Shown: positions 42,742 through 42,797, counted from the stretch's first letter. The stretch is 64,000 nt of DNA from Streptosporangiales bacterium (GCA_009379995.1 WHSR01000004.1:78-64077), one strand, 5' to 3'. Notes: generated by a model not told the origin, from the sequence alone. Numbers and translations: made by a program.

Positions 42742-42797
42742 GTCGTGATCTTGCAGAAATTCAACCGGCCGGAGTTGAATTTCTGCAAGATCGCGAC
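42742..42797. repeat. AT-rich palindromic repeat element, copy 1 (24-nt arms with 1 mismatch, 8-nt loop)
   Basis: gtcgtgatcttgcagaaattcaac-cggccgga-gttgaatttctgcaagatcgcgac. Lies 10 nt downstream of the dnaE stop. Confidence 0.9.

What the first reader, a model, noticed from the sequence alone, without database searches (positions are those of the whole stretch)
42742..42797. Family of AT-rich perfect palindromes at gene ends (copy 1, downstream of dnaE)
Three loci within 17 kb share the core GTGATCTTGCAGAAATTCAA ... TTGAATTTCTGCAAGATCAC (42742-42797, 53140-53198, 59250-59290). This core is strikingly AT-rich for such a GC-rich genome. Copy 1 has 24-nt arms with one mismatch, which is a G-U wobble on the plus-strand RNA, and an 8-nt loop. 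It starts 10 nt after the dnaE stop. All copies are intergenic and sit immediately 3' of a gene (dnaE, ileS and its convergent neighbour, ftsQ). None has a U-tract. Plausible roles are a REP/MITE-like mobile palindrome, an I-shaped terminator or RNA-processing hairpin, or a protein-binding site. I do not recognise this sequence as a described repeat family.
Basis: seen in the sequence. Interest (0 to 1): 0.6.

Follow-up and report, generated by a model that had tools for sequence, protein, structure and literature searches.

The report
Lineage-specific palindromic hairpin repeat at gene ends
Three copies of a short AT-rich palindrome sit just after stop codons in a GC-rich uncultured actinomycete genome; they look like a small lineage-specific REPIN/MITE-like repeat that forms hairpins, which is a common kind of bacterial junk or semi-useful DNA, not a new mechanism.

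Summary
Three loci (42742-42797, 53139-53199, 59248-59292) share the core GTGATCTTGCAGAAATT (35% GC in a 70% GC window). Each is a near-perfect palindrome with 24-, 28- or 18-nt arms. No shuffle reproduced the core, and fold z-scores were -7 to -14.

The window comes from a Streptosporangiales MAG. Copy 3 is an internally deleted derivative. Copy 2 supplies the stop codon of the gene convergent with ileS.

Orthologous spacers in relatives are mostly empty. One close relative carries the element at the ftsQ-ftsZ site, and its contig ends inside the element. A more distant relative has a decayed half. Differences between copies are mirrored on both arms, so pairing is preserved. A C-rich tract on one side gives each copy a polarity.

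I found no U-tract, Rfam family or promoter consensus. The window encodes no transposase. Nothing matched in JGI metagenomes, IMG/VR, plasmids or phages.

Best reading (about 0.55): a lineage-restricted, non-autonomous palindromic repeat of the REPIN/MITE type, tolerated right after stop codons. It makes very stable RNA or ssDNA hairpins that may protect or process mRNA 3' ends, but it is not an intrinsic terminator. The closest functional analogue is the mycobacterial TRIT motif. Genome-wide copy number could not be measured. Interest is modest.

The parts
42742..42797 (.). Copy 1: palindrome with 24-nt arms (42742-42765 / 42774-42797), one mismatch and an 8-nt loop. It lies 9 nt after the dnaE stop (TGA, 42807-42809, - strand) and 23 nt before the GTG start (42718) of the 179-aa membrane-protein gene.
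42723..42741 (+). C-rich tract GCCCCCTCCGTCTCCCTTG flanking copy 1 on one side only. Its complement (GGAGACGGAGGGGGC) is the Shine-Dalgarno region of the 179-aa gene.
53139..53199 (.). Copy 2: perfect palindrome with 28-nt arms (53139-53166 / 53172-53199) and a 5-nt loop. It lies 9 nt after the ileS stop (TAG, 53127-53129, + strand) and contains the TGA stop (53191-53193) of the convergent 327-aa gene.
53130..53138 (+). C-rich tract CGGCCCTCC on the left of copy 2, between the ileS stop and the palindrome.
53216..53230 (+). Solo 15-mer GCCCCCTCCGTCGCC, matching the copy 1 flank at 14 of 15 positions, 17 nt to the right of copy 2. It may be a footprint of a lost copy or part of a larger insert. 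It lies inside the C-terminal extension of the 327-aa ORF. Weak evidence (E 0.047).
59248..59292 (.). Copy 3: 18-nt perfect arms (59248-59265 / 59275-59292) with a 9-nt loop. It is an internally deleted derivative that keeps TTGCAGAAATTT on the - strand. It lies 6 nt after the ftsQ stop (TAA, 59299-59301, - strand) and about 290 nt upstream of the ftsZ start (about 58955).
59293..59298 (-). CCCCCC tract (read on the ftsQ sense strand) between the ftsQ stop and copy 3. The same tract is present in relative L061 and absent from the empty site in L050.

Best explanation
The three loci belong to a small repeat family restricted to one lineage. Each copy is about 45-80 bp of non-coding DNA built from two inverted 18-28-nt arms around a short variable spacer, with a short C-rich tract on one side. 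It has been copied into gene-end spacers in this uncultured Streptosporangiales lineage.

Inferred mechanism: the element behaves like a REPIN or foldback MITE. It is non-autonomous and is recognised as a hairpin, most plausibly in single-stranded DNA, by a transposase encoded elsewhere in the genome. It survives only where insertion is tolerated, immediately after stop codons. Being a perfect palindrome, it is also prone to slipped-strand deletion (copy 3, and the empty or decayed sites in relatives).

Once transcribed, it forms a very stable 18-28-bp RNA stem at the 3' end of the upstream gene's message. That stem could block 3' exonucleases or be cut by RNase III. It cannot act as a canonical intrinsic terminator.

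Shown: the repeat family, hairpin potential, mirrored changes on the two arms, presence/absence among relatives, altered gene ends, and the lack of terminator or promoter features. Inferred: mobility, the enzyme responsible, and any effect on RNA.
For: - **One family in unrelated spacers.** The three spacers share a 17-23-nt core never seen in shuffles. The core is 35% GC against 70% for the window.
- **Pairing is preserved while sequence changes.** Copy 1 has ...TTCAAC/GTTGAA... and copy 2 has ...TTCAAACC/GGTTTGAA.... Copy 3 has GTCCGTG/CACGGAC where copies 1 and 2 have GGTCGTG/CACGACC. The loops are unrelated: cggccgga, gagtt. REPINs show the same pattern, conserved ends with a variable spacer and compensatory changes (PMC3116915).
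- **Presence/absence at the ftsQ-ftsZ site.** By FtsQ identity to the window (BLASTP values): filled in the window and in L061 (76%); a decayed 17-mer in L048 (64%), with chance about 0.007 anywhere in 66 kb; empty in L050 (80%), L051 (63%), L062 (68%) and L065 (67%).
- **Presence/absence at the ileS site.** In L048 and L058 the convergent genes are 4 and 40 nt apart with no element.
- **Altered gene ends at copy 2.** IleS is 4-5 aa shorter and the neighbouring protein about 20 aa longer than in relatives, ending on a TGA inside the arm.
- **Copy 3 fits a microhomology (CAA) deletion** of a full-length copy.
- **The L061 contig stops 30 nt after the stop codon**. That equals k-1 for Logan's k=31 assemblies (my own knowledge), as expected at the edge of a repeat or long inverted repeat.
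- **No hairpin requirement at empty sites.** Fold z-scores there are about 0.
- **ssDNA hairpins are also very stable**, -20 to -35.5 kcal/mol.
Against: - Only three copies were seen, all within 17 kb, and none in the other 47 kb of the window. One copy plus one relic turned up in 87 kb of relatives' DNA. A high genome-wide copy number is therefore not shown.
- No target-site duplication is evident. The window encodes no transposase or RAYT.
- The arms are not themselves small REP hairpins.
- The ftsQ-ftsZ copy is shared by two lineages and leaves a relic in a third. At that site the pattern looks like old vertical inheritance with losses, not recent hopping.
- All copies lie 6-9 nt from a stop codon. 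That tight placement could reflect selection for a function and not merely tolerance.
- A search of 5.8 billion protein clusters with translated element frames found nothing, and a JGI metagenome scan found only chance hits.
Confidence: 0.55

Rival explanations
1. A selected RNA element at gene ends, analogous to TRIT. The hairpin, perhaps with a lineage-specific factor that binds the conserved double-stranded stem, ends, processes or stabilises transcripts just after the stop codon. At convergent genes it would work in both directions. The family would then exist because of that function, not because of mobility.
For: - All copies start 6-9 nt after a stop codon or overlap one.
- The stems are extremely stable in either orientation.
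- Pairing is kept by mirrored changes on the two arms.
- Copy 2 sits where a relative has its own GC-rich hairpin between the same convergent genes.
- TRIT in Mycobacterium is a precedent: a conserved palindromic motif restricted to one genus, 147 copies, narrowly placed around stop codons (PMC3152330), with some well-defined mRNA 3' ends reported (PMC3384566).
Against: - There is no U-tract, and purified mycobacterial RNA polymerase needs one, with or without NusA/NusG (PMC3993855).
- TRIT and I-shaped predictions overlap only 2-4% of mapped M. tuberculosis transcript ends (10.1101/2022.06.01.494293).
- Copy 1 lies inside a probable dnaE-downstream-gene operon, with the next gene's ribosome-binding site directly after it. 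Its only mismatch weakens the sense-strand RNA (A.C), not the antisense one.
- Relatives without the element have no hairpin at the ftsQ-ftsZ site, so no conserved need is visible.
- An AT-rich stem is not what selection for stability would choose in a 70% GC genome.
Confidence: 0.22
2. A double-stranded DNA binding site for a dimeric regulator or nucleoid protein. Candidates are an operator shared by dnaE, ileS and ftsQ-ftsZ, or an AT-rich nucleation site for an Lsr2-like protein in the cell-division region.
For: - The half-sites are symmetric, 31-32 bp apart centre to centre (about three helical turns) in copies 1 and 2.
- All three sit in a 17-kb replication and cell-division neighbourhood, one of them upstream of the conserved ftsZ promoter block.
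- AT-rich patches are very rare in this window: 4 segments in 64 kb.
Against: - Arms of 24-28 nt with perfect complementarity far exceed what operators need.
- Indels that differ between copies are mirrored on both arms, which preserves pairing, not a fixed protein-contact sequence.
- Copy 3 lacks the inner half of both arms yet keeps a perfect stem.
- The sites are at 3' ends, not promoters. Copy 2 lies between convergent genes.
- The site is absent from orthologous regions in most relatives, although the adjacent ftsZ control region is nearly invariant.
Confidence: 0.08
3. A local, non-mobile duplication. One old hairpin at the ftsQ-ftsZ spacer was copied twice to nearby spacers by ectopic gene conversion or template switching during replication. 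No dedicated transposition system and no wider family would exist.
For: - All copies lie within 17 kb, with none in the other 47 kb.
- The ftsQ-ftsZ copy is the oldest: it is shared with L061 and leaves a relic in L048.
- Copies 1 and 2 are nearly identical to each other.
- No transposase lies nearby and there are no target duplications.
- No other public sequence carries the element.
Against: - The flanks of the three copies share no homology that could guide conversion, apart from the short C-rich tract.
- Copies 1 and 2 are longer than copy 3, so they cannot derive from its present truncated form.
- The L061 contig break at k-1 hints at repetition in that genome.
Confidence: 0.12

Closest known systems
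REPINs / REP sequences mobilised by RAYT transposases (Pseudomonas, Enterobacteria; PMC3116915)
   Same: Short, non-coding and extragenic. The organisation is symmetric: two highly conserved inverted ends around a less conserved spacer, predicted to fold into a hairpin in ssDNA or mRNA. Compensatory changes occur across the stem. Decayed single halves remain as remnants. The family is confined to one lineage and persists vertically.
   Different: Each REPIN end contains a small REP palindrome of its own, and the family is tied to a RAYT gene flanked by REPs. Here the arms have no internal hairpin and no RAYT is visible. Copy number is unknown, whereas REPINs number in the hundreds. The element is AT-rich in a GC-rich host, and the stems are longer and perfect.
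TRIT, the 'tuberculosis Rho-independent terminator' motif of Mycobacterium (PMC3152330)
   Same: Found in an actinobacterial lineage. It is a conserved palindromic hairpin with both sequence and structure conservation and no U-tract. It is restricted to one lineage, reads the same in both directions, and is placed very narrowly around stop codons (TRIT about -8; here from -6 to +9).
   Different: TRIT was reported only in Mycobacterium, with 147 copies in M. tuberculosis. No TRIT sequence or model was available here, so sequence relatedness could not be tested. Terminator activity of TRIT itself is doubtful.
Foldback or TIR-only MITEs (for example Correia/NEMIS, RUP, Nezha)
   Same: Small non-autonomous elements made almost entirely of two inverted repeats. 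They insert in intergenic DNA, can supply stop codons or alter gene ends, and show presence/absence between relatives.
   Different: MITEs are defined by terminal inverted repeats matching a parent IS, plus direct target-site duplications. No TSD and no parent IS were found, and the one-sided C-rich tract is not a TIR feature.
Canonical intrinsic (L-shaped) terminators and proposed 'I-shaped' actinobacterial terminators
   Same: A stable stem-loop just downstream of stop codons. Like the proposed I-shaped structures, it has no U-tract.
   Different: Intrinsic terminators have GC-rich stems of 5-12 bp followed by a U-tract and share no sequence with one another. Here the stems are 18-28 bp, AT-rich and share sequence. 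Termination without a U-tract was not reproduced with purified mycobacterial RNA polymerase (PMC3993855).

Membership tests
REP/REPIN-RAYT | Two inverted conserved ends separated by a variable spacer, forming a hairpin, with compensatory changes across the stem | tested here: met
   The arms are conserved, the loops are unrelated, and indels are mirrored on both arms. Feature definition taken from PMC3116915.
REP/REPIN-RAYT | Each conserved end contains a short REP palindrome of its own | tested here: not met
   The arm GTCGTGATCTTGCAGAAATTCAA has only a 3-bp TTG/CAA self-complement (read directly).
REP/REPIN-RAYT | Tens to hundreds of dispersed extragenic copies per genome | not testable with these tools
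   Only 64 kb of the MAG was available, with 3 copies. NCBI MAG records are not in the contig index.
REP/REPIN-RAYT | A cognate RAYT (Y1 HUH transposase) gene flanked by the repeats | tested here: inconclusive
   Pfam scans of 30 window proteins found no transposase. The rest of the genome was not seen.
MITE | Direct target-site duplication flanking the terminal inverted repeats | tested here: not met
   Flanks are CCCTTG|...|TTAAGT, CTCCCG|...|CGATCG and (on the ftsQ-sense, - strand) CCCTTCTTG|...|CAAGAACCG. These are extensions of the palindrome only, not direct repeats.
MITE | Terminal inverted repeats matching a parent insertion sequence | tested here: inconclusive
   No related sequence in plasmids, phages or IMG/VR. 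ISfinder was not available.
MITE | Insertion polymorphism between related genomes | tested here: met
   The ftsQ-ftsZ site is filled in the window and L061, holds a relic in L048, and is empty in L050, L051, L062 and L065. The ileS site is empty in L048 and L058.
Intrinsic terminator | GC-rich stem followed directly by a U-rich tract | tested here: not met
   The terminator scan reports none at the three loci. The tails are CAAGGGAG, CGAUCGUC/CGGGAGGG and CCGCGACA/GGGGGGUU.
TRIT (Mycobacterium) | Match to the TRIT covariance model or consensus | not testable with these tools
   TRIT is not in Rfam (no hit). No alignment or supplement is held. Its authors report it only in Mycobacterium.
TRIT (Mycobacterium) | Palindromic conserved hairpin placed narrowly at stop codons | tested here: met
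   Distance from stop to hairpin is 9, 9 and 6 nt. For the convergent gene, the stop lies 6 nt inside the hairpin.
Any Rfam family | Score at or above the gathering threshold | tested here: not met
   No hits at gathering thresholds. In E-value mode only generic hairpin look-alikes appeared (mir-322, 33.8 bits against a gathering score of 62; MIR842; Oskar_OES).

The most novel reading that the evidence does not exclude
The element is not junk. It would be the Streptosporangiales counterpart of TRIT: a lineage-specific, sequence-defined hairpin signal placed at a fixed distance from stop codons. A dedicated factor would read the conserved AT-rich stem and the adjacent C-rich tract as dsRNA or ssDNA, to end or cut transcripts in a genome that lacks U-tract terminators. 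Equivalently, it would be the substrate of a so far undescribed hairpin-guided (HUH-type) mobilisation system in Actinobacteria, with the C-rich tract as its cleavage or guide site.
Probability: 0.12. Interest if true: 0.65.

Novelty: new member of a known kind. Interest (0 to 1): 0.3.

Why it matters
If the family proves abundant in this uncultured Streptosporangiales lineage, it adds a REPIN/TRIT-like hairpin repeat from Actinobacteria, where such elements are poorly catalogued. It would also give a second, independent case for asking why conserved palindromes pile up right at stop codons in GC-rich genomes that lack classical terminators.

There are practical consequences too. The element breaks short-read assemblies (the L061 contig ends inside it). 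It changes annotated gene ends: IleS is shortened and the neighbouring protein extended. One copy sits next to the highly conserved ftsZ control region.

In itself, one more lineage-specific palindromic repeat is not surprising.

Tried and rejected
- **Genome-contig scan.** All are chance or coding matches and none is palindromic.
- **JGI metagenome scan.** The gapped palindrome pattern gave two hits, both in AT-rich unrelated DNA.
- **IMG/VR, plasmids and phages.** IMG/VR gave no hits in two scans. Plasmid BLAST gave one 27-nt chance hit and phage BLAST none.
- **Protein-word trick.** I searched 5.8 billion protein clusters with a concatenation of the element's translated frames, hoping to catch ORFs that run into other copies. 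Only 13 candidates appeared and none scored.
- **Reaching the rest of the MAG contig.** The exact FtsQ protein is not in the contig index, nor is an Actinomadura homologue.
- **Orthologous 'empty site' for copy 1.** Relatives have no dnaE next to the 179-aa gene homologue, so the site is not comparable.
- **Replication terminus or Ter-site idea.** GC skew is uniformly negative across the window and gene orientation is constant.
- **Promoter idea.** No sigma-70-like match.
- **Literature string search for the core.** No papers.
- **TRIT model.** Not obtainable.

Full report
**Observation**

- Copy 1: arms 42742-42765 and 42774-42797, 24 nt, one mismatch, 8-nt loop.
- Copy 2: arms 53139-53166 and 53172-53199, 28 nt, perfect, 5-nt loop.
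- Copy 3: arms 59248-59265 and 59275-59292, 18 nt, perfect, 9-nt loop.

The 20-mer GTGATCTTGCAGAAATTCAA matches five arms at up to 3 mismatches, and none of 100 dinucleotide shuffles gave any match. Searches allowing up to 5 edits find nothing else in the 64 kb. The window is 70.4% GC and the core is 35% GC. Only four stretches of 24 nt or more with 8 or fewer G+C exist in the window, and two of them are these palindromes.

As RNA the hairpins fold at -28 to -52 kcal/mol (z -7.4 to -13.6). As ssDNA they fold at -20 to -35.5 kcal/mol.

**Context**

FtsQ and the 179-aa protein downstream of dnaE are 100% identical to proteins of an NCBI MAG labelled 'Streptosporangiales bacterium' (locus tag GEV03_..., 128,160-bp contig). 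Pfam confirms the flanking genes: dnaE (42807-46523, -), lspA, rluD and DivIVA. No transposase appears among 30 window proteins. The ileS (+) assignment rests on the syntenic tRNA-synt_1 gene in relatives. The gene convergent with it (53191-54174, -) is a 327-aa protein with only a sub-threshold DUF6233 hit.

Positions relative to genes:
- Copy 1 lies 9 nt after the dnaE stop and 23 nt before the start of the next gene on the same strand.
- Copy 2 lies 9 nt after the ileS stop and contains the TGA stop of the convergent gene.
- Copy 3 lies 6 nt after the ftsQ stop and about 290 nt upstream of ftsZ, just upstream of a strongly conserved ftsZ leader or promoter block.

Copy 3 is not a full copy. 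Its sequence (...GATCTTGCAGAAATTT|CAAGATC...) is what remains when the inner arms and loop of a full-length copy are deleted across a CAA microhomology. Copy 2 is not purely intergenic. The G.U wobble of copy 1 exists only on the + strand. Both neighbouring genes are on the - strand, where the mismatch is A.C and costs about 4 kcal/mol.

**Anatomy**

Aligning the copies shows an invariant left half, CGTGATCTTGCAGAAATT. The three loops are unrelated. Differences between copies are mirrored on both arms:
- Copy 2 has an extra A plus CC (TTCAAACC/GGTTTGAA) where copy 1 has TTCAAC/GTTGAA.
- Copy 3 has GTCCGTG/CACGGAC where copies 1 and 2 have GGTCGTG/CACGACC.

Base pairing is therefore maintained while the sequence drifts.

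Every copy also has a C-rich tract on one side only: GCCCCCTCCGTCTCCCTTG, CGGCCCTCC, CCCCCCTTCTTG. This gives the otherwise symmetric element a polarity. Relative to the upstream gene the order is stop, C-tract, hairpin for ileS and ftsQ, and inverted for dnaE. There the complementary G-rich strand serves as the ribosome-binding site of the downstream gene. A near-identical 15-mer (GCCCCCTCCGTC[T/G]CC) also lies 17 nt to the right of copy 2. I cannot explain it, and it is only marginally significant.

**Relatives**

The lineage is poorly sampled. The nearest FtsQ proteins are 80%, 76%, 68%, 67%, 64% and 63% identical, and I fetched their contigs. The results by site:

| Site | Locus (FtsQ identity) | State |
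|---|---|---|
| ftsQ-ftsZ | L050 (80%) | TAA-CTTGA-CGACACGC; window has 53 nt here, so empty |
| ftsQ-ftsZ | L061 (76%) | TAA-ACCCCCCACGTCCGTGGTCTTGCAGAAACA; same element with C-tract and 3 substitutions; contig ends there |
| ftsQ-ftsZ | L048/L049 (64%) | GTTTCGAATTTCCTGCA; the inner arm with two 1-nt insertions |
| ftsQ-ftsZ | L051, L062, L065 | empty |
| ileS | L048, L058 | convergent genes 4 and 40 nt apart, no element; L058 has its own GC-rich hairpin |

The L061 contig ends exactly 30 nt after the stop codon. That equals k-1 for Logan's k=31 assemblies (my own knowledge), and is what a repeat or long inverted repeat boundary produces. A match like the L048 17-mer occurs by chance anywhere in 66 kb of relatives' DNA with probability about 0.007, and here it falls in the orthologous 60-nt spacer.

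In an FtsQ tree the window, L061 and L050 form one tight clade. The element was therefore either lost cleanly from L050 or gained in a subset of the clade.

In the window, IleS is 4-5 residues shorter than in relatives. The convergent protein is about 20 residues longer and ends on the element's TGA. About 130 nt of novel DNA therefore surrounds copy 2.

The copy 1 site could not be compared, because relatives lack dnaE at that position. In 87 kb of relatives' DNA the only copies are L061 and the L048 relic. Spacers that lack the element show no significant folding.

**What it is not**

- No Rfam family matches at gathering thresholds. The permissive mode gives only generic long-hairpin look-alikes.
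- None of the copies has a U-tract or a sigma-70-like promoter.
- GC skew and gene orientation give no sign of a replication terminus.
- The sequence is absent from IMG/VR, PLSDB plasmids, GenBank phages and (as a palindrome) JGI metagenomes. It is also absent from the searchable literature.
- A search of 5.8 billion protein clusters for translated fragments of the element found nothing.

**Interpretation**

The best-supported reading is a lineage-restricted, non-autonomous palindromic repeat of the REPIN or foldback-MITE kind. The observations that fit:
- a shared core in unrelated spacers;
- composition foreign to the genome;
- conserved inverted ends around a free spacer, with compensating changes, which is exactly the REPIN pattern described in Pseudomonas (PMC3116915);
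- half-site relics and a deletion derivative;
- patchy presence among close relatives;
- rewritten gene ends.

Recognition as a single-stranded hairpin, with an asymmetric flanking tract, is how IS200/IS605 and RAYT enzymes work. That step is inference, because no such enzyme was seen.

Two REPIN or MITE defining features were tested and not met: there is no REP hairpin within each arm and no target duplication. I therefore file the element as 'works like', not as a member of those families. Copy number, the third key feature, could not be measured. My only genome-collection scan went on an 18-mer that returned chance hits, and the MAG is not in the contig index.

**Function at the RNA level**

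Its placement 6-9 nt after stop codons, or overlapping one, resembles TRIT. TRIT is the conserved palindromic motif of Mycobacterium, with 147 copies, narrowly placed around stop codons and restricted to the genus (PMC3152330).

The terminator reading is weak on three counts:
- Purified mycobacterial RNA polymerase needs a U-tract even with NusA or NusG (PMC3993855).
- TRIT and I-shaped predictions explain only 2-4% of mapped M. tuberculosis transcript ends.
- Copy 1 sits inside a probable operon.

A perfect 18-28-bp duplex is, however, a plausible barrier to 3' exonucleases or a substrate for RNase III. I regard that as a likely side-effect (inferred, untested), not as the reason the family exists.

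A dsDNA operator is unlikely, given arm length, the mirrored indels and the truncated copy 3.

**Verdict**

The element is an undescribed sequence family of a well-known kind. Interest is modest (0.3). It would rise if the full genome shows many copies at fixed distance from stop codons, or a dedicated enzyme or factor.

Noticed in passing
window 59140-59232 (- strand), upstream of ftsZ: A block of about 100 nt (CCGCGTGGTTAGTTGACCCTGGGGGAGAGCCAACCCTACTGTCCGTATCAATCCTCAGGTTGACATAACTCTAAAGCTCGACTTGAGGGTGAGGGTT) is almost invariant across six lineages whose FtsQ proteins are only 59-83% identical. It contains TTGACC-N18-TACTGT and TTGACA motifs. It is probably the ftsZ promoter or leader region, or an unrecognised RNA element.
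   Followed up: partly
window 49622-49890 (+): A sub-threshold T-box leader match (40 bits against a gathering score of 93, E 6e-6, full-length model). It overlaps the longest-ORF start of ileS at 49695, so the true ileS start is probably further downstream.
   Followed up: no
window 26374-26445: Five to six tandem 12-nt units (ATTCCCGCGGTG). They sit in the divergent intergenic region between an ABC transporter gene (24458-26320, -) and an MDMPI_N-domain gene (26475-27107, +), and look like iterated regulator binding sites.
   Followed up: no
window 53127-53257: Both convergent genes have altered 3' ends relative to relatives. IleS ends 4-5 aa early. The 327-aa protein, which has a weak sub-threshold DUF6233 hit, carries an extra tail of about 20 aa (GHPNGKAETAEATEGASGRDDRS) that ends on a TGA inside the palindrome.
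   Followed up: yes
window 42723-42737 and 53216-53230 (+): A near-identical 15-mer, GCCCCCTCCGTC[T/G]CC, lies beside copy 1 (4 nt to its left) and beside copy 2 (17 nt to its right). It could be a footprint of a lost copy, part of a larger insert, or chance (E 0.047).
   Followed up: partly
window 42807-47461 compared with L056, L058, L064: Synteny differs. In the window, dnaE and an enolase-superfamily (MR_MLE) gene lie between rluD and the 179-aa gene. In three relatives rluD is followed directly by that gene's homologue, or by a CO/xanthine dehydrogenase cluster, and dnaE is elsewhere.
   Followed up: partly
L061 1193-1222 (Logan ERR14225181 contig end): The contig stops exactly 30 nt after the ftsQ stop codon, inside the element. 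This is the k-1 signature of a repeat or long inverted-repeat boundary in a k=31 assembly, so such elements will fragment short-read assemblies of this lineage.
   Followed up: partly
window 28001-32000, especially 30293-30336: This is the lowest-GC stretch of the window (0.673). It has a 44-nt pyrimidine-rich AT island (CTTGTACTTGCCTTTTTCACTTTTCTTCTCACTTTCTTCGTAAG) abutting the 3' end of a YbaB-like gene. It is unrelated in sequence to the palindromes.
   Followed up: no
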